From Spirochaetia bacterium (GTDB lineage: Bacteria; Spirochaetota; Spirochaetia; DSM-2461), in contig OY764216.1 in assembly GCA_963668315.1 (NCBI GenBank), positions 5,056,001 to 5,120,000 on the forward strand: a stretch of 64,000 nt of DNA, written 5' to 3'. The notes beneath the pieces are model-generated. The model was given only the letters and a program-made list of their open reading frames with translations. It was not told the origin of the DNA and searched no databases. Positions within the stretch are counted from its first letter, which is position 1, and each line of letters begins with the position of its first letter. Shown one piece after another: positions 38,098-49,248 of the stretch. The position numbers were made by a program, and so were the translations under genes.

Positions 38098-39270
38098 ATG
38101 ATCTTAAACGAAAATTCCGAAAAAAAAATCATTCCCATTGCCGGGGGCAAAGGGGGCGTCGGTAAAAGCGTATTGTCCACAAACCTTTCCCTCCTTCTGG
38201 CTGTAAACGGAAAGAAGACGATTGTGGTTGACCTTGACCTGGGCGGTTCCAACCTCCATACCATGCTGGGACTTAAGAATACCAATAAGGGCATCGGAAA
38301 TTTTATTTCTGACAAATCGCTTACGATGGAAGAACTGATTGTTCCCACCGAATTCGATAATCTCTATTTAATCCCCGGAGATGTTCTTGTATACAGGCTC
38401 GGTGAAATCTCCTTTGAGGAGAAAAAAAGAATAGTGAAAGGCCTGGTTGAACTTGATGCCGATTACATAATCCTTGATCTGGGGGCCGGTTCGAGCCTGA
38501 ACGTCATTGACTTTTTCCTGATTTCCAATTCGGGAATTATCGTTACGACCCCCCATATGACTTCCATAATGAACGCCTTCGGTTTTTTAAAAAACGTCGC
38601 TTTCCGCTTTCTGCAGAGAGCCTTTGCAGAAAACCAGGTGTTCACCGATTACTTTGATCGGGCGTTTCAGGAGAGGAATCCCGGAGAACAGAAGTCTCTC
38701 AAAGAGATGCTGGAAGACCTGAGAGATCAGGAACCGGAGGCCGTGAGCAAAGCGGAACTGTTCCTGGAGATACTGCAGCCGAAAATTATAATGAATATGG
38801 CCGAGGATGCCTCAGAACTTTCCATAGCTGAGAGTCTGAGAGATCTGACAGGCCGCAGCCTATCCATCCATTCAGAGTGCCTTGGCCTGCTTTTCATGGA
38901 CAAGCAGGTAAGTGATGCACTGAAAGAGAGGGTTCCCTTTATCATGCAGTACCCCGAATCGGTAACTGCCGAGGGTATGGACCGAATGGCAAAGAAGATT
39001 ATCCTCTCAAAAAGATTCCCCGAAATGCCCCTGGAACTGGATTATTATAAAGACAGCTTCGAACTGACCCAGATAGAAGCGGAAAATGATCAGGAAGCGA
39101 TAGAGCAGACAAAAAACAACGGCTATTCAGCAGAAGAGATCGATAACCTCCTCCATCTTATAGAGGAACAGCAGAAAAGGATTCATGAACTGGAAACAGC
39201 CCTGGGACGTACGGCTATGGGCGGCGGACAGGGCGGTATTCTGGAAACATTAAATAGAATGTCTCTATAA
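38098..39270 (+). CDS. MinD/FlhG-like P-loop ATPase with a C-terminal extension
   Basis: GGKGGVGKS deviant Walker A, DLDLGGSNLH, LDLGAG. Confidence 0.88.
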   Translation: MILNENSEKKIIPIAGGKGGVGKSVLSTNLSLLLAVNGKKTIVVDLDLGGSNLHTMLGLKNTNKGIGNFISDKSLTMEELIVPTEFDNLYLIPGDVLVYRLGEISFEEKKRIVKGLVELDADYIILDLGAGSSLNVIDFFLISNSGIIVTTPHMTSIMNAFGFLKNVAFRFLQRAFAENQVFTDYFDRAFQERNPGEQKSLKEMLEDLRDQEPEAVSKAELFLEILQPKIIMNMAEDASELSIAESLRDLTGRSLSIHSECLGLLFMDKQVSDALKERVPFIMQYPESVTAEGMDRMAKKIILSKRFPEMPLELDYYKDSFELTQIEAENDQEAIEQTKNNGYSAEEIDNLLHLIEEQQKRIHELETALGRTAMGGGQGGILETLNRMSL

Positions 39271-39312
39271 CTTGCCGGGAGAAAAATCTCCCGGGGACTT
39301 TCGAATGTTTAT

Positions 39313-39876
39313 CTATGCTTTTCCATCAAAGCCGAAAGGCTGCATCCATACGGGAATGACCTTACTGAGAATATCAACTGCGCTCTGCGCATCATTTCTC
39401 GCAATTCTCATATTTTTCCAGAGTGTCATAAGCACAAAGTTCTCCACCATTTTTCCCGCATCGTCGCTCTGGTAGACAACGTAGGATTCATTGTATCCCG
39501 TCTCATTTAAAACAGTAAAGGCTGTGAATGTTTCCACCGGTTTCTTGGCGATGTAAATACGGTCCTGCCGCTTGGTCACATAACGCTCAAGTTCTTTAAA
39601 GCGATAGGGAATTCGATGGGTATCTGCACGATAACAGGGATCAATCCCTTTCTGAATATAAGATAGCGGCTCATACAGAACATACAGTTTCCGACCGTCT
39701 GCCTGAAAAGTCATTCCCTCGTCGGTCTGATATATATCCTTCACATTCCCGTAAGAAATTGCTTCAAATCGAGTATAATTTGAAGATTTATCAAAAAAAA
39801 CAGAAACGATATATCCCCCTTCCTGGGGCAAATCGCCTTCCATATATGCTTCAAAAAGATCTTTTATCTCAGCCAT
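39313..39876 (-). CDS. Hypothetical protein
   Basis: AGGAG RBS; upstream TTGACA-17-TAGACT promoter (39936-39964). Confidence 0.8.
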   Translation of the reverse strand: MAEIKDLFEAYMEGDLPQEGGYIVSVFFDKSSNYTRFEAISYGNVKDIYQTDEGMTFQADGRKLYVLYEPLSYIQKGIDPCYRADTHRIPYRFKELERYVTKRQDRIYIAKKPVETFTAFTVLNETGYNESYVVYQSDDAGKMVENFVLMTLWKNMRIARNDAQSAVDILSKVIPVWMQPFGFDGKA

Positions 39877-40031
39877 ATCTATCTCCTGTCAAGTAAAAAA
39901 TGTAAACAATCTTTCTTCTAAAGTAACTACTTAAAAGTCTAATTCAGGGTCCATTTATTGTCAATGACTAAAAATAATTTCATCACTCTTCTCTTGGTAT
40001 GAACGAAGGCTTAAATCTGGTATAATCAATT

Positions 40032-40838
40032 ATGGATTTATCTTCAGCTTTCTCTATCTACAATCTTCCCGATTCAAAGCTTTCACGCGAGGACATAGAT
40101 AGAAGCTTCAAAAAACTCGTAAAAAAATATCATCCCGACCGCAACCAAAAGTATGCGGACTGGTGTCATGAGCGAATGACAGAAATCAATGAAGCCTATG
40201 AAATTCTCATGGGGTATGTGGAAGCTGACCTGGGATCGGACCACAGAGGCAGTAATAGCAGCGGGGGTAACAGAAAAAATGAGTCCTCCCGCGAATCAGA
40301 TTATGGGAGCACGAACTTTTTCAGAAAAGCGGCGAAGCTGTTTTTCGAAGGTGTTCACACTTATTACGATTACGAACTGACAAAAAGATCCCTCCGGCAG
40401 GAAGGGGTCTGGAAATATCACTACCGCAGAGCGGTAAAGATGATGAATAAAGCTCTGGATGAATGGGAAAAAAGAATTACCGCCCATCCTGAGGACAGGG
40501 AAGAAGAAAAATTCCTCTATTTCGGCCGCCTTTTTCTCGCAGATATAGAGGCACAAGAACCTCAGATTCCCCGCTTGATGGGAGATGAAAAGACCCATAT
40601 CGCCTACAGGGAAGCTGTAAACAGCATAGATAAAGCATTTTCAGGTTTTTTCAGCGCCGAAAGGGGTGCAAGAGAAAAACATCTTGCCCCCCTGTATAGA
40701 GCTTCGCACCTGTTGATACTTCTCGTAGAAAATTATCCTCAGACCGAATGGTATAACCTGGCCCTGCAGAAACTGAACTTACTTGATTCATTTCTGGATC
40801 TGCAGGACCTTTTCAGGACGGGAAAAATTACTTTTTAA
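40032..40838 (+). CDS. J-domain protein
   Basis: KKYHPDRN ... EINEAYEIL. Confidence 0.88.
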   Translation: MDLSSAFSIYNLPDSKLSREDIDRSFKKLVKKYHPDRNQKYADWCHERMTEINEAYEILMGYVEADLGSDHRGSNSSGGNRKNESSRESDYGSTNFFRKAAKLFFEGVHTYYDYELTKRSLRQEGVWKYHYRRAVKMMNKALDEWEKRITAHPEDREEEKFLYFGRLFLADIEAQEPQIPRLMGDEKTHIAYREAVNSIDKAFSGFFSAERGAREKHLAPLYRASHLLILLVENYPQTEWYNLALQKLNLLDSFLDLQDLFRTGKITF

Positions 40839-43437
40839 GGTTATGCCGGGCAATCGCCAGTTTTGCAATGGGAATCCCATAGGGTGAGCAGGAAACATAA
40901 TTCAGTCCTACTTCCTTGAAGAAATCCACATTTTCCGGTTCAGCTCCGTGTTCTCCGCAAAGTCCCATCTTCAGATCAGGTCTGACCATGCGGCCCCTTT
41001 GACCGGCAATGCTGATAAGTTCCTTAACAGCCGTATTCAGCGAAGAGAAGGGATTCTTTTCCAGAAGGTCAAACTCGTTATAATCAGGGAAGAATGTATT
41101 AAAGTCATCCCTGGATAATCCCATGGTAGTCTGGGTCAGATCGTTCGTACCGAAACTGAAAAAATCGGCATATCGGGCTATCTGACCGGCGAGAATAGCC
41201 GCTGAGGGTAACTCGATCATCGTACCGACATGGTAGGGAAGAATATCCACTCCGAGCCTTTCCCGTACCTCTTCTTCAATAGTTTCTATACCCACGATCT
41301 CCTTGCCTTCGATCTTCTTGCCGTATCTGACAGCTTTAAGCTCGCTGGGACTCATGACGATAGGAATCATAATTTGCGGACTGGAGATAATATTATCTTC
41401 CTTGCGAAGCTTATAGGCCGCCTCAAAGATAGCAGTAACCTGCATTCTATATATTTCCGGTATGGAAATGGCCAGTCTAACGCCCCTGTGTCCAAGCATG
41501 GGATTCACTTCCCCGATGATGTCACAACGGTTCCGGATCTCTTCGGCGGTAACACTCGGGTGGGATTTCTGGAAGAAGGAAACGAACTCGTCCATTTTCT
41601 CTTTCGTATGGGGAAGAAATTCATGGAGGGGAGCATCGAGCAGTCTTATGGTAACAGGCATTCCATTCATGATCTTGAAGAGTTCATAGAAATCTGTCAT
41701 CTGCATTTTCTGCAGCTGTTTCAAAATCTTATCCCGGTCCTTGCTGTCATCGGTGATGATCATAGAACGGAAGATAGGAATACGTTTATCGTCAAAGAAC
41801 ATGTGCTCAGTCCGGCAGAGTCCGATTCCTTTAGCACCGAATTTTTTTGCCAATTCCGCTTCCCGAGGCTGATCGGCATTAACATAAACGTCGAAGTCCT
41901 CAATTTTTCTCTGAACGATTTCCATAAAGTCCAGCAATCCGCTCTCTTCTATGGATGGCTCTATCAGATCAACCTTACCGAAATAGATCGTAGGTTTATC
42001 ATAGGAAGGAACATCAAGAGAGAGATAATCCCCCTCATTTACCTGTATTCCGTTTATCTTCATTCCCTTATCGTTAAACTTGATATCGGGATTGATCATG
42101 GCAATCTTACCAAGGGAACGGGCTACTACCGGAGCATGGGATGCATATCCCCCGTCTCTGGCGATAACCCCGCGACTGACTTCAATAGCCTTTACATCTT
42201 CGGCATAGGTTGAGGGCATGGCCAGGATGAAGTGATCTTCCAAACCTCTCTGATGGGCGATCCTGGCTTCCTTGACAAGTCGTTCGGTGGAAAAGAAGAC
42301 ACGTCCCACGGCGGCACCGATAGCACCGGAGATTCCCCCTTTCACGGACTTGATCTTTGCCGCTGAAGCTTTGTTCAGAACGGGGTGAAGTATCTCGGCC
42401 AGACGGGGAGGACGGATATCATTCACCGCATAGGCATCGTCAATCAGCCCCTCCTTGTGAAGGCTCAGTAAAGTCTGAATTTCCGCCATGGCGGATTTGT
42501 TCGTAGCTTCATTCTGATCAATGATCCAAAGCTTTCCGTCTTCCACAGTAAACTTTATTCTGCGAATCTCTTTATAATGAGCCTCAAGGGTCTTTGCCAC
42601 CGGTATCAGCGCATCAAGATATTTACTATTCAGCTTGAGAATGTCCGCACCCGTGGAATCCATTTCATCAAAGGAGTCCTTGAAATACAAACCGGAAAGC
42701 TCATTTTTACCGGTTTCAATATCTCTGGTATAGAAAAATCCGGAATAGCTCTCTTTGCCGTAATTACCGAAAGTCATGGACTGGATAAGAAGAGCCGAAT
42801 CGTTCAGGACCTCACTCTTTTTGAATATCTCTTTATAGCGGGTTAGAACATAAAGGAGCTGAACATCGGCATTTTCAAACAAATCAGCAGGATAGAAAGT
42901 CTTGATTTTCTTCAGAAATTCCTTCGTCTCGGGAATTCCCTTGGCTGCGGAAGCTTCATCGATGAGAGCGGATATTTTTTTCAATATCTTCTCATCCTGT
43001 TCAAGTTCCTGATCAAGAAGGAGAATTCTTTTAAGCATTCCTCTGTATTCGTGATAGGCGAACTCCTCCCCCACCTTATCGGCGAATCCGCCCAGGGTAG
43101 TGTCGCAGAGACCTATATTGTGAATACTGAAAGTAGTATCAACCATATTTAAAGTCGTGCTGACAACAACTTTCACGAGGAGAGGGTTTTCACCGCTGTT
43201 ATACTGCTTTTCAACAATCGGTTCCATCGTACCAAGCTGCTCATTCAGCATGGTCAGAGTTTTTTCCCTATTCTCCTCTAAAGTCATAACTGTATCGTTT
43301 GTCAAAACGAAACCGGGAAGAATAGGAATATCCAGAGCAGCCAGCTCCATCATTCGCTGTCCGCGGACACCGCAGAGTTCCAATTCCTGGTCATTTTCTG
43401 CATACACGGTTTTACTGAAGGGAAATACGGCATTCAT
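40828..43437 (-). CDS. PPDK-like PEP-utilising phosphotransferase with a degenerate nucleotide-binding domain
   Basis: GGYASHAPVVAR phospho-His, GIGLCRTEHMFF, EVNPMLGHRG, FSFGTNDLTQ, GLCGEHG; N-terminal ATP-grasp motifs altered. Confidence 0.9.
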   Translation of the reverse strand: MNAVFPFSKTVYAENDQELELCGVRGQRMMELAALDIPILPGFVLTNDTVMTLEENREKTLTMLNEQLGTMEPIVEKQYNSGENPLLVKVVVSTTLNMVDTTFSIHNIGLCDTTLGGFADKVGEEFAYHEYRGMLKRILLLDQELEQDEKILKKISALIDEASAAKGIPETKEFLKKIKTFYPADLFENADVQLLYVLTRYKEIFKKSEVLNDSALLIQSMTFGNYGKESYSGFFYTRDIETGKNELSGLYFKDSFDEMDSTGADILKLNSKYLDALIPVAKTLEAHYKEIRRIKFTVEDGKLWIIDQNEATNKSAMAEIQTLLSLHKEGLIDDAYAVNDIRPPRLAEILHPVLNKASAAKIKSVKGGISGAIGAAVGRVFFSTERLVKEARIAHQRGLEDHFILAMPSTYAEDVKAIEVSRGVIARDGGYASHAPVVARSLGKIAMINPDIKFNDKGMKINGIQVNEGDYLSLDVPSYDKPTIYFGKVDLIEPSIEESGLLDFMEIVQRKIEDFDVYVNADQPREAELAKKFGAKGIGLCRTEHMFFDDKRIPIFRSMIITDDSKDRDKILKQLQKMQMTDFYELFKIMNGMPVTIRLLDAPLHEFLPHTKEKMDEFVSFFQKSHPSVTAEEIRNRCDIIGEVNPMLGHRGVRLAISIPEIYRMQVTAIFEAAYKLRKEDNIISSPQIMIPIVMSPSELKAVRYGKKIEGKEIVGIETIEEEVRERLGVDILPYHVGTMIELPSAAILAGQIARYADFFSFGTNDLTQTTMGLSRDDFNTFFPDYNEFDLLEKNPFSSLNTAVKELISIAGQRGRMVRPDLKMGLCGEHGAEPENVDFFKEVGLNYVSCSPYGIPIAKLAIARHNLKK

Positions 43438-43454
43438 AGACTTATCCTTACAAT

Positions 43455-44426
43455 TTAAAATAGATCAAGAACCGCTCCGACCGGTCCATCGAGAAAGGCT
43501 TCGAAACGGGAACTGGCACCTTCGAAAAGATACTTTTTCAGTTTGGCAACACCTTTGATATCCGCTCCGGCCACGCTGAACATGATAGGGTTACCCCTTT
43601 TCACCTTTCCCCACTTAAAAAGGGCATTAATATCGTTTATTCGTTCACCGTCATACCATATAAGAACATCGCAACCGGGATGGGCAACTTTGTAACTTTC
43701 AATGATTTTCTTCCATGCTTCAACATTACCGTTGTGAAAAAGCTCATTGGTTACGGTAATACCGTATTTTGTAGAAATACGCCGCGGGCCTCCCGGGGCG
43801 GCAGACAGTTCTGAAGGTTCCGCCTCGGAGATTTCGGGAGCGGCAGGAGCTGCCGGCTTTGCCTCCACGGGAATAGAAGCGGGAACCGATTTTCCATCGG
43901 AATAGGCTTTTTTGCCCTTAATATTCGCCCCATAAAGAAGTTTGTAAAAATCGTCGACACAATCATCAAGACTGCTTTTATCAATTCCACTGTCACCGGA
44001 TGGTCCGGCATAAAAAACGATCATTTCACCGTCGTAAAGAGGTAGGTCATTCCACTGGTCTTTGTCCGCAGGATTAATGACGCTCACTTTCCCGTCCGTA
44101 TCCCAGACAAGAAGAACGAGGTGGCATTTATTCCAACCGGCAAGAGTTTCGGCAATTTTATCAACTTTCCCCAGCTTCCCCTTTATATTATGGGAGCGGT
44201 AGGAAAATCCAAACTTATCAACAAGAAGAATATTAATGATGGGAAGTATCTGATATTCATCAATTTCCCGGTTTCCCAGCGACTCATTAATCGCGTCAGC
44301 GAGGTTATACCCCTCGCTGACGTCGTCTGAGAAACCAAGGGCCATTTTGAAATGGCCCAAAGCAAGGTTAAACCCCGCTCTACTAGATAATAGGTTTAAT
44401 TTATTATCCTGTATGGTTTCAGTCAT
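43455..44426 (-). CDS. Protein between cfpA and the PPDK-like gene, with a divergent HPr-like C-terminal domain
   Basis: Starts 3 nt after the cfpA stop; Pro/Ala linker followed by ITVTNELFHNGN...ALFKWGKVKRGNPIMFSVAGAD. Confidence 0.8.
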   Translation of the reverse strand: MTETIQDNKLNLLSSRAGFNLALGHFKMALGFSDDVSEGYNLADAINESLGNREIDEYQILPIINILLVDKFGFSYRSHNIKGKLGKVDKIAETLAGWNKCHLVLLVWDTDGKVSVINPADKDQWNDLPLYDGEMIVFYAGPSGDSGIDKSSLDDCVDDFYKLLYGANIKGKKAYSDGKSVPASIPVEAKPAAPAAPEISEAEPSELSAAPGGPRRISTKYGITVTNELFHNGNVEAWKKIIESYKVAHPGCDVLIWYDGERINDINALFKWGKVKRGNPIMFSVAGADIKGVAKLKKYLFEGASSRFEAFLDGPVGAVLDLF

Positions 44427-44428
44427 AT

Positions 44429-46390
44429 TTACATATCTCTCAGTTCATCAAGATTTACTTTCTTCCTTCTGGAAGGAGTTACATCGGCTTTTCCCTTGGG
44501 AGCGGCGTCTTCACTGGCAGGTGAAGCCAGTTTCTGCGCATACTCGGCTCTCGTGGGTTCTGTTTCTGCAGAAAAGCTCTGATTGATGTCGTCCCTGACA
44601 GTAGAACGTCTTCTCTTGAAGGAAGCAAATGCTGCATCCTGGAATCCTTTGGATATGCCGTTGAGGAACTCATTAAGCACATTGGCCATGGAATTCAGAG
44701 TGTACTTCTTTCTCTTGATGCTGGTGATATCAACATCAAGAAGCAAACCGGGCTGTACATGATAGGGATTGATCAGGTAATCAAAATCATTGAATTCCCT
44801 GTTCAGAAAGGCAATTCTTTCATCAATAACGACACGGGTCTTGGGATTCTGGTAACCGTAGATGAGGCTGACCTTCTCAGAGGTTTTCTTAAGCATTTTC
44901 TTAAGAAGATCTTTCTCGTAGAGATAAGTCTGGTTAAGCTTCTCTACATCCGTATCCTCTTCACGAATTCTCAGGATCTCGTTCCAGGTTTTTTCCTGCT
45001 CTTCATAGATGGGATCACCGGATACATCCTTGATGGTTTTCTTGATTCTGCTTCTGACCTTTTTAGCCAGATCATCAAAATCGTTAACAGCCATAGCCTT
45101 CTTGCTGCTCTGGTAAACAACTTCGACGACATCAAACACATGGGTGATTTCCTGCTGGAAAGCATTCATCTGTTTGTCATAGGCTTCACGCTGTTTGATC
45201 AGCTGAGAACTATCGTAATATTTGAGTCTCATGCTGTATCTTTCATCGGGGAGAAGATCTACATCGGTCTGCTCATACTCGCGAAGGACCAGTTCACGGG
45301 CTCCTTTAAGGTTCTCAACATACTGATACCCCATCTTGCTGGTATCCAGAATTGAGGTAAGGTTGTTGATGGATGTATTGAAACCGCGGTTTCTGATATT
45401 TTCCATATCAACGATCTTCTTGATGTTTTCACGGATGTTCAGAGGATCGAATTCCTCGGGATCAATCTCGGCTCTGAGACCTTCGATCTTATCGACAAGG
45501 TTCTTTGCCATGAAAGTATATCTCTTGGAATCTTCGCTTTCCGCATCATCGTCGGTGAATTCGGGAACACGCTTGATCTTCTCAAACATCATTTCCGTAT
45601 CGGAAAGTTCTTCCTTACCTTCGTCTACGAGCTCATCCTGGTAGATCTCGATTTCCTTGTCGATCATTTCTGTTACGGTTTTGGAAATCTGCTCTTTGAT
45701 GATGTACTCTACGGTTGCCTGGTACTGGAAAATCGGACTGATAAGCTCGGAATCAAGAATATTGATGGAGAGCTTTACGTCGGAAACGGTTTCCGGTTTA
45801 CTGGCGTTATCCTTAAATGAACACTTAACGATGGAGTAAGCATTTTCACCACGGATAAAAGCACCAACATCAGTTTTCTGGCGGAGAAGGGAGTTGGTCT
45901 CGTTTTCAAGATCATTCAGTCCTCTCTGTACATGTCCCTGAAGGTGACCGTACATGTTAACAATGGACTTCTCAATCTCACCGGTGTTGAACTTGTCGGC
46001 ACCGCCAATCTGATCAAGCATTTCGGCAATTTCTTTGGGAGTATAACGGGCCAGCTGTTTCTGCTCTTCCTTATCGATGAAACCTCTGATCTTTTTGACC
46101 ATTTCATCTTCGGAAGTAACCACGTAACGGTTGAACATGTTCTGATAGTTCTGGTTGACGTAGTTATAAAGCTTCTCCTTGAGACCGCCCATGACTTCCA
46201 ACTGCTGAAGCACTTCCTTGGGCAGTTTAGTCTGAACGACATTTAATACTTTATCCGCTTCTTCGTTTATTAGTCTTTCATACTCTTCTTTCTGGGATCT
46301 TCCTTCCTGGGCCAGAGAGTTTCTGGAACCTACGGCCGAAGGTTTAGTAGGATGAAATACATTCGGACTTCTGGGCAATTCACCTGCCAT
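44429..46390 (-). CDS. cfpA: Cytoplasmic filament protein A
   Basis: N-terminus [25 protein letters not shown] is characteristic of spirochaete CfpA; coiled-coil-rich; GAGGAG RBS favours ATG 46390. Confidence 0.93.
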
Positions 46391-46518
46391 AATCATCTCC
46401 TCTTTTACTGTTGTGGTGTAGGATTATCTAAAAACAATTATAAAACAGTATACTCCTTATTTCAAAAAAAACATAGAAAGTTTTTTTTTATGACCTGTAT
46501 ACAGCTTCTATAATACTT

Positions 46519-49248
46519 TTAGTGCCTATCTAGCCAGCTCTGCACTTCCTTCCTGAAGTTTTCGCAGTTACTGGTTTCAATCAACTCGTTCATCTCCTTA
46601 ATATAGGGAGAGACATCCAGCCCCTTCTCATAAGAGTCGGAGTATTCATTTTTCAACTTTTCAAATATATTTGTATGTTCAGCCAGTTCGCTCTCAAGGA
46701 GGCGAGCAGCGATATACCAGATATTGTCATCGGGCTTAACCTTATAGACGAGATCCCCCGGGATCTTCAGTACAAGCCCCGGCTCGATTATGGTGGGGTC
46801 GGCCCCGTCGACGACATGAAAACCAAGATCACGGTAACCGTTCATAACCGAAATGGCATTCGCCTTCAGATGGATATCAGCCATGGTGATTCGGATTCCC
46901 CCCACCGTGAAGTCATCAAGAAAATCATTGTCCATGACAAAGGGTTTCGTGACTATCGTGTCTGCCGTATCAATAAACTTGACTTCAGGACTATCCGTGC
47001 CGTTTTCCGCCGGAATAATCTCGGCATCTCCCCCGGAGAGAGGTGAAGAATCGGGAACATCCTCGCGACCGGTGAGAACACGTTCACCCGAAGCATTGGG
47101 ATCTCCTGCGTTACCGGACCTGCCTGCCGCGCTGTCTCCCGAACTTTCTCCCGTGGAGTATCGGTCATTACCATTTGTTACGGAATCACCGGTTCCTACG
47201 GCAGCGTTTTCACCGTCGACACGGCCTTCGGCTCCCTGTGCCGTATCTGACCCGGTTTGCATACCGGAGGCAGATGGATCAGGACTCTGATCCTGTGCAG
47301 GATGCCCCTGCGTCTGTGCTCCCGATTCCGTGACCGTTTCGTTGTCGCGGGAAGAAAAATTCCGGCGGACAAATGATCTATCGCCTCTACCGAAATAATC
47401 ATAGCCAAGAAAGCCGAGAAGAGCCAGCAAGAGAAGGAGCAGACCGATTATGGGCCATTTTCTCCCTTTGGAGGAAGAGGCTCCAGGCCTGCCTGTGGAT
47501 GGCCCTGAGAAACTCGCTGAGCCGGGTTGATTGAAAGAAGAAGCCGGTTTAGTGGTTGAGGATGAATCCGATGATGCAGCGGCGGAGGAGGCCGCTTTTT
47601 TCGCAACGCTTTTCTCCTCGGCAAGACTCTCTTCATATTTTTTCATATCCTCCCAGAGAGTGCCCTCATTCAAGGCGTTCAGTATGGCTTCCAGCCTCTT
47701 TCTCTCAGAGAAGAAAAAATCGACCTCTTTCTTATCGCACTGAAGCAATGCCTCATGCATATCGGCCGCTTTTTTGCGGTCACCCGCGGAAATATCAAGC
47801 TTATAAGGAAGATAGAAGCATCCATCCCCGTAACAGTTAGCCGAAAAGAGAAAATCGTCAGCCTGCTGACGGGGCGGGGGGAAGGTTTTACCGAGCAGTC
47901 CTGCCGCTTCTTCCGCTTTTTTAGCCAGGGGTCCTTCCTCCCGGGAGAGAAGGGAGAGAAAAACCACGCAGTTGCAGGCAAATATACCTACCCTTTCATC
48001 TCCCCCTTTCCCGGAATTCCGAAGAAGCCTTTTCATTTCGGCGAAGCTCTTTTCCTGGGGAGGGGAAAGCTGGTTCTTATTTTCTCTCAATCCATCGAAT
48101 AGTCCCGCTACAGCTGAAGCCGTCTCTTTTACAAAAAGAATATCATCGGCCTTCATCTCACTTCGCAGAAGAGCGCGGGAGGTTCTATCGATATAGAGCT
48201 TTTTCAGTTTTTCCCAATCGGGGCTGTCACTGTATATCCTGACCGGAACACCATCGGGAAGAAGACAGTCCTGTTCCACACCATTAAAATTGAGAAATAC
48301 CCCGCCTTTTTCATTAATTTTCGCTGAGATTTTATCGTCCAGATGAAATAGAAAGCTGTCTCCTTCCCATTCTCCGGCAGTTCCATTCCATTCGAATTTT
48401 CCCTTGGCGGAAATATCCTTGAATTGTATGGGGACATCTCTGGATTGCACGTATTCAAAGAGGGGCTCAATTTTCCCGGAAAAGCTCTTATCCCTGGAAA
48501 AGAAGGTCATGGGATTCTTTGCGGCTATGCCTCTTTTAATGAAGTTCATGACACCGGCAGACTTATCCCCTTCCATCTCATCAGGTTTGAGGTCAACCAG
48601 AATACCTTCCAGCCTGTCGGGATTCCATCCGGCACGGGCTAACTTTTTGAAATAGTTTTTATCCCATTTCAATCCCAAAAGTTTGCTGCCGTCAAAAAAG
48701 TAAAGATCCTCCCCGACGCGGAACAGCCCCTTCTCCCTGATACTACCCCCTTCCCAACGGAGAGGATTTTTTCTGAAGATAGTGAGGATTTCAGAGCAGT
48801 AGTAATTATAATGGCGGTCGGATTTTTCTCTCGCATAAAGATCAAAGAGCCTCTGCTCCCCGAAAGTCACGACAATATTGCCCGTATTGTAAAAGTAGAC
48901 ATGATCCTTCCCTTCCCTCTCTTCCTGCTCCCGATAGGAGATGACGTCAGGATCGGTTACATGGAAACGGTCAAAGAAACTTTTGATAACCTCAACAATC
49001 TTAGGCTCGCCCAGATAGCGCCCGCGGTATTTGTGAGTAAGACCCACTTCGCCGAAGGGATTACCTGTGAAAGATTCGGTGATCACAGTATGAGAAATTA
49101 CTTCCAAAACCTGTTCATTCAGCCAGGAACTGTTCCCGATACGAACAAAAGGTTTTATGTCAAGTTCATCTATTCCAAGAAAAAGCAGATAGCATTCACG
49201 GTCAATCCTGAACACTCTGTTCTCCCATGGAATTTGAGTAAAGCTCAT
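46519..49248 (-). CDS. Large single-pass membrane protein with a C-terminal LysM-like region
   Basis: About 600-aa N-terminal part, Ser-rich linker, TM helix WPIIGLLLLLLALLGFLGY, low-complexity spacer, DPTIIEPGLVLKIP / YKVKPDDNIWYIA. Confidence 0.75.
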   Translation of the reverse strand: MSFTQIPWENRVFRIDRECYLLFLGIDELDIKPFVRIGNSSWLNEQVLEVISHTVITESFTGNPFGEVGLTHKYRGRYLGEPKIVEVIKSFFDRFHVTDPDVISYREQEEREGKDHVYFYNTGNIVVTFGEQRLFDLYAREKSDRHYNYYCSEILTIFRKNPLRWEGGSIREKGLFRVGEDLYFFDGSKLLGLKWDKNYFKKLARAGWNPDRLEGILVDLKPDEMEGDKSAGVMNFIKRGIAAKNPMTFFSRDKSFSGKIEPLFEYVQSRDVPIQFKDISAKGKFEWNGTAGEWEGDSFLFHLDDKISAKINEKGGVFLNFNGVEQDCLLPDGVPVRIYSDSPDWEKLKKLYIDRTSRALLRSEMKADDILFVKETASAVAGLFDGLRENKNQLSPPQEKSFAEMKRLLRNSGKGGDERVGIFACNCVVFLSLLSREEGPLAKKAEEAAGLLGKTFPPPRQQADDFLFSANCYGDGCFYLPYKLDISAGDRKKAADMHEALLQCDKKEVDFFFSERKRLEAILNALNEGTLWEDMKKYEESLAEEKSVAKKAASSAAASSDSSSTTKPASSFNQPGSASFSGPSTGRPGASSSKGRKWPIIGLLLLLLALLGFLGYDYFGRGDRSFVRRNFSSRDNETVTESGAQTQGHPAQDQSPDPSASGMQTGSDTAQGAEGRVDGENAAVGTGDSVTNGNDRYSTGESSGDSAAGRSGNAGDPNASGERVLTGREDVPDSSPLSGGDAEIIPAENGTDSPEVKFIDTADTIVTKPFVMDNDFLDDFTVGGIRITMADIHLKANAISVMNGYRDLGFHVVDGADPTIIEPGLVLKIPGDLVYKVKPDDNIWYIAARLLESELAEHTNIFEKLKNEYSDSYEKGLDVSPYIKEMNELIETSNCENFRKEVQSWLDRH

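What the first reader, a model, noticed from the sequence alone, without database searches (positions are those of the whole stretch)
40828..46390. cfpA operon may encode a cryptic PEP-driven phosphorelay: ATP-dead PPDK acting like Enzyme I, plus an HPr-like partner
Seen in sequence: cfpA, a 323-aa gene and a PPDK homologue are tightly packed on one strand. The PPDK homologue keeps the phospho-His motif (GGYASHAPVVAR) and all PEP/pyruvate-domain motifs (CRTEHMFF, NPMLGHRG, MIELP, FGTNDLTQ, CGEHG). Its ATP-grasp motifs are altered: GGKG reads GVRG, VSVRSG reads VKVVVS, NAQGEDVV is absent, and DIEF...LQTR reads RIKF...IDQN. The middle gene ends in an HPr-like domain. Established: Enzyme I shares the PEP and phospho-His domains with PPDK and passes phosphate to His15 of HPr. 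Inference: this is not a metabolic dikinase but a PEP -> His -> HPr-like relay co-expressed with, and possibly regulating, the spirochaete cytoplasmic filament.
Basis: partly seen in the sequence, partly recalled or inferred. Interest (0 to 1): 0.85.

Follow-up and report, generated by a model that had tools for sequence, protein, structure and literature searches.

The report
ATP-dead dikinase with HPr-like partner
Beside the spirochaete cytoskeletal-filament gene cfpA sit a look-alike of the metabolic enzyme pyruvate phosphate dikinase that has lost its ATP-handling residues but kept its PEP and histidine sites, and a protein predicted to fold like the phosphate carrier HPr; together they likely form an untested PEP-driven phosphate relay tied to the filament rather than a step of glycolysis.

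Summary
The 869-aa PPDK homologue differs from C. symbiosum PPDK at K22, R92, D321, E323, Q335 and R337 but keeps His455 and the PEP site. In 94 orthologues, K22, R92, E323 and Q335 are never kept, while His455 and eight PEP-site residues always are; 19 canonical PPDKs keep all. The genome has a separate intact PPDK, pyruvate kinase, Enzyme I and HPr. The middle protein (TP0747 family) has two predicted HPr folds; the second carries a His kept in 101 of 101 but lacks HPr's Arg17, Pro18 and Ser46. All three genes co-occur in 102 of 301 phylum genomes (109 have any); 85 of 100 loci keep the order; the operon recurs in metagenome contigs, one labelled Deltaproteobacteria. Best reading (about 50%): PEP to His434 to His231, linked to CfpA. 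Transfer and target are untested; His-less homologues exist. The scan noted this before on other genomes. In print I found only an HPr-fold table row for TP0747.

The parts
46437..46465 (-). sigma-70-type promoter match (11 of 12) just upstream of cfpA
   Evidence: best of 9 sites in the region (shuffles give 14 weaker-or-equal-threshold sites, so position, not count, makes it plausible); not shown to be used
44429..46390 (-). cfpA, cytoplasmic filament protein A (likely start 46390 behind an AGGAG; ORF opens at 46396)
   Evidence: NF040882 1096 bits, cut-off 500; sequence
43455..44426 (-). TP0747-family protein, 323 aa: helical N-terminus, two predicted HPr-like folds joined by a low-confidence linker, conserved C-terminal LxLF
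   Evidence: PF27497 on homologues, named TP_0747_N; model; LxLF end in 99 of 101 and 114 of 114
43926..44207 (-). first HPr-like fold (residues 74-167), no conserved His at the His15 position
   Evidence: VIA-align Z 9.8, rmsd 2.2, 80 aligned to E. coli HPr; column census
43506..43775 (-). second HPr-like fold (residues 218-307) with the NELFHNGNVEAW motif
   Evidence: model pLDDT 92; top four matches HPr, Z 6.7-7.4
43734..43736 (-). His231, candidate phospho-acceptor, immediately before helix A
   Evidence: 101 of 101 and 114 of 114; helix starts at the next residue
40828..43437 (-). PPDK-like protein, 869 aa (TP0746/TDE0844 type by gene order)
   Evidence: TIGR01828 669.8 bits, below cut-off 843.45; full-length alignment to 1DIK
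42403..43437 (-). remodelled ATP-grasp domain (residues 1-345): catalytic residues replaced, domain still conserved
   Evidence: within-clade identity 44.5%, 24% to canonical
41953..42360 (-). swivelling His domain (residues 360-495); His434 codon at 42136-42138
   Evidence: PF00391; His kept in 94 of 94
40843..41916 (-). PEP/pyruvate TIM-barrel domain (residues 508-865), active site intact, with a clade-specific GKKIEG insertion
   Evidence: PF02896 243 bits; eight site residues 94 of 94

Best explanation
The PPDK look-alike has lost its ATP-site residues and kept its PEP and histidine sites, so it likely takes phosphate from PEP onto His434 and would then pass it to His231 of the neighbouring protein, which is predicted to have an HPr fold, making a dedicated relay that likely reports the PEP:pyruvate ratio to the CfpA filament. 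Shown: the residue pattern, the separate clade, the co-inheritance and gene order, and the invariance of both histidines in the operon-linked sets. Inferred: (1) the enzyme cannot run the ATP/PPi half-reaction (about 0.9); (2) PEP-dependent autophosphorylation of His434 as in PPDK and Enzyme I (about 0.85); (3) transfer to His231, with the former ATP-grasp domain serving as the docking platform that the helical domain provides in Enzyme I (about 0.55); (4) the output acts on filament assembly, anchoring or positioning (weakest step; no target identified).
For: ATP site: K22 is R in 93 and L in 1 of 94; R92 is V in 92 and I in 2; E323 is K/R in 87 and never E; Q335 is E/D in 93 (gapless register); D321 is kept in only 7. 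All 19 canonical PPDKs keep every one. K/R295 pairs with D/E307 in 87 of 94, which would put a salt bridge where Mg binds (inference). His455 and eight PEP-site residues are kept in 94 of 94. The His domain is as conserved inside the clade (63%) as in canonical PPDK (61%) but only 32% between them, as expected for a changed docking partner. The partner's second domain is predicted HPr-like with His231 just before helix A, and a published model of TP0747 also matches HPr (Z 8.3, supplement rows of PMC13749626). Co-occurrence: all three in 102 of 301 genomes, any in 109; 85 of 100 loci in this order. In family f44 the genes are scattered but all kept (5 of 5 checked). A divergent clade keeps order and both histidines while its ATP-grasp domain erodes further (K22 to Q in 6 of 6, loop deleted). 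This genome has an intact PPDK, pyruvate kinase, Enzyme I and HPr elsewhere. TDE0842-0844 are listed together as repressed in T. denticola co-culture (passages of PMC3914990).
Against: No sequence-level similarity to HPr; Foldseek E only 0.04 or worse with MoaE ranked first; Z 6.7-7.4 lies in the range the tool calls common, with unrelated aIF2-alpha at 6.2. HPr's Arg17/Pro18 read Gly/Asn in 101 of 101 and Ser46 reads Asp in 92; placing His231 on His15 needs a one-residue loop deletion (my reading ranges). Among 50%-identity representatives 4 of 79 two-domain members and 10 short stand-alone members lack the His yet keep the other motifs. R337 is kept as R in 30 and K in 23 of 94, and a basic set (R25, K89, R292, K/R295, K314) is conserved, so the old pocket may still bind an anion. 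G102 has neither pyruvate kinase nor a canonical PPDK by these searches. CfpA can stand without the pair: two extra copies in G005 and the copy in G278. No downstream acceptor is known.
Confidence: 0.5

Rival explanations
1. PEP:pyruvate sensor without transfer. The enzyme phosphorylates only itself; its phosphorylation state sets the position of the swivel domain and so its binding to the TP0747-family protein or CfpA. The HPr folds are binding modules and His231 is structural.
For: His-less homologues keep helix A, the KL..L.EGA helix and the LxLF end; the first HPr fold has no His; Arg17/Pro18 absent.
Against: His231 is kept in 101 of 101, 114 of 114 and 7 of 7 divergent operon copies. The His-less stand-alone copies sit between purH-like and ubiE-like genes with no PPDK-like neighbour in the loci seen, so His loss goes with loss of the linked enzyme there.
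Confidence: 0.2
2. Atypical small-molecule phosphotransferase. The remodelled N-terminal pocket still accepts a small substrate (phosphate, a nucleotide or another anion), so the enzyme turns PEP into pyruvate, perhaps making PPi or ATP beside the filament.
For: Conserved basic residues and 44.5% within-clade identity in the domain; R/K at the R337 position in 53 of 94; G102 has no other PPDK or pyruvate kinase; ppdK is among the most expressed T. pallidum genes (table rows of PMC8525777).
Against: Both acidic metal ligands are lost or charge-reversed; the divergent clade loses R25 and a whole loop yet keeps operon and histidines; G102 has a bypass, GTP-PEPCK plus oxaloacetate decarboxylase alpha over cut-off; 96 of 105 carriers have a second PPDK-type match.
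Confidence: 0.15
3. Reverse flow or structural role. The partner is phosphorylated by ordinary Enzyme I or HPr and the PPDK-like protein drains the phosphate to pyruvate; or both proteins are structural bridging or anchoring parts of the filament ribbon with catalysis secondary.
For: All PTS steps are reversible (passage of PMC8100219); this genome has five Enzyme I-like genes; a title in the reference list of PMC3398590 reports bridging and anchoring components of treponemal filaments (paper itself not read).
Against: A purely structural role does not explain 94 of 94 retention of nine catalytic residues; strict linkage to the PPDK-like gene rather than to pts genes.
Confidence: 0.15

Closest known systems
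Pyruvate, phosphate dikinase (EC 2.7.9.1; C. symbiosum 1DIK; TIGR01828)
   Same: Full three-domain layout, 869 aa aligned end to end, His455 and PEP site intact.
   Different: K22, R92, D321, E323, Q335, R337 all replaced here; regulatory Thr453 is Ala (Ser or Ala in 94 of 94); below the family cut-off; separate long-stem clade; clade-specific insertions.
PTS Enzyme I with HPr (and EI-Ntr with NPr)
   Same: Homologous PEP and phospho-His domains (passage of PMC5371819); proposed PEP to His to HPr-fold flow.
   Different: Docking domain is a former ATP-grasp fold, not the helical HPr-binding domain; far below TIGR01417 cut-off; partner is a 323-aa protein with two HPr-like folds and no Arg17/Pro18/Ser46; no EII or sugar gene in the operon.
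Treponema cfpA loci: TP0748-TP0747-TP0746 and TDE0842-TDE0843-TDE0844
   Same: Same order of cfpA, hypothetical and 'ppdK' by locus tags; middle gene is the TP_0747_N family.
   Different: Papers seen treat the third gene as a glycolytic PPDK (PMC10013896, PMC8525777 passages; PMC13749626 tables). Orthology of those named genes is inferred from order and family name; I did not align them under their own names.
Crh of Bacillus (recalled; structures among one search hits)
   Same: HPr fold without the phospho-His, like the first domain here and the stand-alone SAR324 homologues.
   Different: Crh keeps Ser46 and clear sequence similarity to HPr (recalled); these do not.

Membership tests
PPDK (EC 2.7.9.1) | ATP/PPi-site residues K22, R92, D321, E323, R337 | tested here: not met
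   R25, V91, R293, K295, N309 in this protein; census; residue list from PMC13147460
PPDK (EC 2.7.9.1) | His455 and PEP-site residues R561, R617, E745, D769 (plus C831) | tested here: met
   all kept, 94 of 94
PPDK (EC 2.7.9.1) | TIGR01828 score over cut-off | tested here: not met
   669.8 against 843.45
PPDK (EC 2.7.9.1) | AMP+PPi+PEP to ATP+Pi+pyruvate activity | not testable with these tools
   needs an assay
PTS Enzyme I | PEP-binding barrel and phospho-His swivel domain | tested here: met
   PF02896 243 bits, PF00391 33.5 bits
PTS Enzyme I | Helical HPr-binding N-terminal domain; TIGR01417 over cut-off | tested here: not met
   N-terminus aligns to the PPDK ATP-grasp domain; TIGR01417 109.9 against 341.7
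PTS Enzyme I | PEP-dependent phosphotransfer to an HPr-type protein | not testable with these tools
   needs a labelling assay
HPr / NPr | HPr fold | tested here: met
   predicted models: domain 1 Z 9.8, rmsd 2.2, 80 aligned; domain 2 Z 7.4, rmsd 2.3, 78 aligned, top four all HPr but only about 1 above unrelated folds
HPr / NPr | His at the start of helix A (His15) | tested here: inconclusive
   His231 directly precedes helix A and is invariant; residue-level superposition was not available and the ranges imply a one-residue offset
HPr / NPr | Arg17, Pro18 and Ser46 (positions recalled; read off this genome's HPr) | tested here: not met
   Gly233, Asn234 in 101 of 101; Asp265 in 92, Asn in 8
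HPr / NPr | PF00381 sequence match | tested here: not met
   no Pfam hit to E 0.1; genome search finds only the true HPr
CfpA | NF040882 over cut-off | tested here: met
   1096 bits against 500

The most novel reading that the evidence does not exclude
A pyruvate phosphate dikinase was converted, early in spirochaete evolution, into a second kind of Enzyme I: its ATP pocket was sealed and reused to dock a two-HPr-fold carrier, and the relay sets the assembly or anchoring of the CfpA cytoskeleton by the cell's PEP:pyruvate ratio. The module moved as a unit to Deltaproteobacteria. The 'glycolytic PPDK' of the syphilis and periodontitis treponemes is this signalling protein, so a reduced genome with no other PPDK or pyruvate kinase must reach pyruvate through PEPCK and oxaloacetate decarboxylase.
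Probability: 0.3. Interest if true: 0.88.

Novelty: new variant of a known kind. Interest (0 to 1): 0.68.

Why it matters
CfpA filaments are tied to cell division and chromosome condensation phenotypes and to infectivity in T. denticola (passages of PMC3398590), yet my searches found no described regulator. This gives two named candidates and two histidines to mutate. It would be a PTS-like relay built independently from a PPDK and wired to a cytoskeleton rather than to sugar uptake. Even if the relay is wrong, the firm part matters: the gene read in print as the glycolytic PPDK of T. pallidum (PMC10013896, PMC8525777) appears by gene order to belong to a clade lacking the dikinase residues, which would change the assumed last step of glycolysis there.

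Tried and rejected
Complex prediction of PPDK-like residues 1-497 with partner residues 213-323 gave no verdict (score 0.02, mark 0.32, controls not folded); it counts neither way, and the partner's first domain, CfpA and the PEP domain were not included. Profile comparison of the second domain with this genome's HPr and with the first domain found nothing. Sequence search of solved structures gave only unrelated hits for the partner and CfpA. The whole-protein VIA search did not rank HPr for the second domain; folding it alone did. ESM Atlas gave no hit at 0.9 or above and nothing for CfpA. No RNA holder listed. The T. pallidum two-hybrid table lists five low-score, promiscuous preys for TP0747, none TP0746 or TP0748, and TP0746 does not appear in it: uninformative. 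My first alignment placed a gap before Q335 and reported Q335 as kept and R337 as lost in nearly all; the HMMER alignment to 1DIK and a gapless recount show Q335 replaced and R337 variable, which I use. Pseudogene decay rejected: open frames and conserved clade-specific residues. Substitute for a missing Enzyme I rejected for this genome: five Enzyme I-like genes and an HPr are present. The original cfpA papers (PMC178068, PMC94139, PMC94976) and the C. symbiosum mutagenesis paper were not held, so what they say about the downstream genes is unseen. Not-in-print statements rest on nine searches of an open-access library; 3 of 15 supplements of PMC13749626 were not searched.

Full report
Anatomy. 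Three genes lie head to tail on the minus strand: cfpA (46390-44429), a 323-aa ORF (44426-43455) and an 869-aa ORF (43437-40828), with gaps of 2 and 17 nt. An 11-of-12 promoter match lies 50-75 nt upstream of cfpA. CfpA passes NF040882 (1096 bits, cut-off 500). The 869-aa protein matches TIGR01828 end to end but under cut-off (669.8 against 843.45), with strong PEP-domain and weak N-terminal Pfam hits; the middle protein has no hit in the local Pfam or NCBIfam. Its homologues carry PF27497, named TP_0747_N.

The ATP site. The residues used to verify PPDKs in PMC13147460 (table row seen) are K22, R92, D321, E323, R337, H455, R561, R617, D769 and E745 of 1DIK. Aligned to 1DIK, this protein has R25, V91, R293, K295 and N309 at the first five, D307 at Q335, and identity at the last five and at C831. 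To see whether this is a clade property I compared 94 orthologues (89 rows of alignment A3 plus 5) with 19 canonical PPDKs (this genome's and 18 fetched). All 19 keep every position. In the 94: K22 is R 93, L 1; R92 is V 92, I 2; D321 is kept in 7; E323 is K 58, R 29, other 7; T453 is S 71, A 23; His455 and eight PEP-site residues are kept in 94. In the gapless register that agrees with the 1DIK alignment, Q335 is E 70, D 23, S 1 and R337 is R 30, K 23, other 41. K/R295 occurs with D/E307 in 87 of 94; I infer a salt bridge filling the metal site. A larger set of 164, which adds 70 and may hold duplicates, gave no Arg at 92 and no Glu at 323. The domain is not decaying: within-clade identity is 44.5% (canonical 65.9%, cross 24.3%), with conserved clade-specific residues R25, K89, S93, H106, F256, R292, K314, S315. 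The His domain is 62.6% within, 60.9% in canonical, 32.4% across. A tree of 35 clade members, 2 fragments and 19 canonical enzymes puts the clade together with support 0.97 and a stem of 1.05.

It is not the cell's working PPDK. This genome has an intact PPDK elsewhere (33% identical), five Enzyme I-like genes, one HPr beside hprK, and pyruvate kinase. Of 105 genomes with a match above 600 bits (a gap I chose from the scores; canonical enzymes score 523 or less), 96 have a further match at E 1e-60, mostly canonical where listed, at least one a split piece. The hard case is G102, a complete 1.1-Mb genome: no pyruvate kinase, no canonical PPDK, only the clade member and an Enzyme I-like gene. 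It has GTP-PEPCK and oxaloacetate decarboxylase alpha over cut-off, a possible bypass. This is the best argument for residual catalysis and the most striking consequence if there is none.

The partner. AlphaFold2 on 114 sequences (pLDDT 83) gives a helical N-terminus, a domain at 74-167, a low-confidence linker and a domain at about 218-307. The first matches HPr at Z 9.8, rmsd 2.2, 80 aligned, with HPr or NPr in the top five and has no conserved His at the active position. The second, folded alone on 101 sequences (pLDDT 92), has four HPr chains on top at Z 6.7-7.4, rmsd 2.3-2.8, followed by aIF2-alpha at 6.2; Foldseek is weak and ranks MoaE first. His231 directly precedes helix A and is kept in 101 of 101 and 114 of 114. 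Arg17 and Pro18 read Gly and Asn, Ser46 reads Asp in 92 of 101. No sequence method links it to HPr. Supplement rows of PMC13749626 give TPANIC_0747 an HPr match (Z 8.3, 83 aligned) and still call TPANIC_0746 a PPDK; the main text mentions neither.

Co-inheritance. In 301 genomes of the phylum the partner was found in 106, cfpA in 107 and the clade enzyme in 105; all three in 102, any in 109. Of the seven partial cases, G048, G140 and G256 are at contig ends, G105 has a split gene, G261 and G168 are 82% and 71% complete, and G278 (93%) has cfpA only. G075 adds a C-terminal half at a contig edge with neither partner found. Kin are not independent, so no test is given. I fetched 100 of the 105 other partner loci: 85 read cfpA-partner-enzyme, 8 partner-enzyme, 7 partner alone. 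The 7 are family f44, where cfpA and the enzyme lie elsewhere (5 of 5 checked). Named carriers include Treponema putidum, Brucepastera parasyntrophica and Breznakiella homolactica.

Beyond spirochaetes. A profile search of 1.84 billion representatives gave 130 hits; 112 covered helix A. His was present in 75 of 79 two-domain members, 13 short and 8 other pieces; it was absent in 4 two-domain members, 10 short stand-alone proteins and 2 chance repeat hits. Named stand-alone members are SAR324 or Deltaproteobacteria; in 22 metagenome loci they follow a purH-like gene (19) and precede a ubiE-like gene (18), with no cfpA or PPDK-like gene listed (part of the output was cut). The other 7 of those 29 loci hold the full three-gene order; one is labelled Deltaproteobacteria bacterium, one only bacterium. 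There His231 is kept in 7 of 7, His434 and the PEP site in 5 of 5 complete enzymes, while K22 is Gln in 6 of 6 and the NAQGEDVV loop is deleted. The module therefore keeps its histidines while the ATP pocket erodes.

Mechanism. PPDK and Enzyme I share the PEP-to-His chemistry (passage of PMC5371819). With the ATP half gone, a phosphorylated His434 needs another acceptor, and the co-inherited neighbour offers an invariant His in an HPr-like position. I give the relay about 0.5. Rivals are a self-phosphorylating sensor with no transfer (0.2), an atypical small-molecule phosphotransferase (0.15) and reverse flow or a structural role (0.15). Nothing here shows transfer, binding or an effect on filaments, and CfpA copies without the pair exist.

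Prior knowledge. Papers seen treat TP0746 as glycolytic (passages of PMC10013896; PMC8525777); PMC3914990 lists TDE0842-0844 together as repressed (passages). Nine searches found no paper describing the lost ATP site or a relay; the original cfpA papers could not be read. PMC7512555, PMC2405797 and PMC8100219 were seen as passages only and added little. Five earlier notes of this scan reach a similar reading on other genomes; they are not independent support. A word search of the scan's notes for the non-spirochaete operon found none.

Verdict. A real, conserved module: a new variant of the PEP/phospho-His/HPr kind, not a member of PPDK, Enzyme I or HPr by the tests run. Interest 0.68.

Noticed in passing
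L285-L291: The full cfpA-partner-enzyme operon occurs in seven metagenome contigs of a divergent clade, one labelled Deltaproteobacteria, flanked by ccm and lon genes; sources name its CfpA 'cytochrome C oxidase subunit II', which conflicts with an NF040882 score over cut-off.
   Followed up: partly
L263-L284: Stand-alone 110-130-aa His-less homologues of the second HPr-like domain (SAR324, Deltaproteobacteria) sit between a purH-like and a ubiE-like gene and keep the LxLF end. Function unexplained.
   Followed up: partly
window 43458-43469: The partner ends in LxLF at the exact terminus in 99 of 101 and 114 of 114 sequences, suggesting the terminal residue is bound or buried.
   Followed up: no
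window 46519-49248 (-): 909-aa protein with one hydrophobic segment and a weak LysM hit upstream of cfpA; homologues lie upstream of cfpA in 15 and downstream of the enzyme in 3 of 100 loci. Possible membrane anchor.
   Followed up: partly
L292, L293 (G005): Two extra cfpA paralogues stand alone, with no partner or enzyme beside them.
   Followed up: partly
G000:C1:1667871-1669604 and 4491574-4493268: Two near-identical Enzyme I-like genes in a duplicated segment, one near an IS-like ORF; two more carry extra N-terminal regions.
   Followed up: no
L059, L067, L069, L080, L081, L083: Some clade enzymes carry an insertion of about 95 aa in the remodelled ATP-grasp domain (962-968 aa).
   Followed up: no
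L049 (G105): The enzyme gene is split into two ORFs and is unusually divergent (32-36%) in this genome.
   Followed up: no
window 44339-44358 (-): Terminator-like hairpin about 70 nt into the partner gene; could lower read-through after cfpA, but such sites are common by chance.
   Followed up: no
window 38098-40838 (+): A MinD/ParA-type ATPase and a DnaJ-domain gene converge on the operon; the latter overlaps the enzyme's stop by 11 nt.
   Followed up: no
G000 whole genome: No PPDK regulatory protein (PF03618) was found in this 97%-complete genome although it has a canonical PPDK.
   Followed up: no
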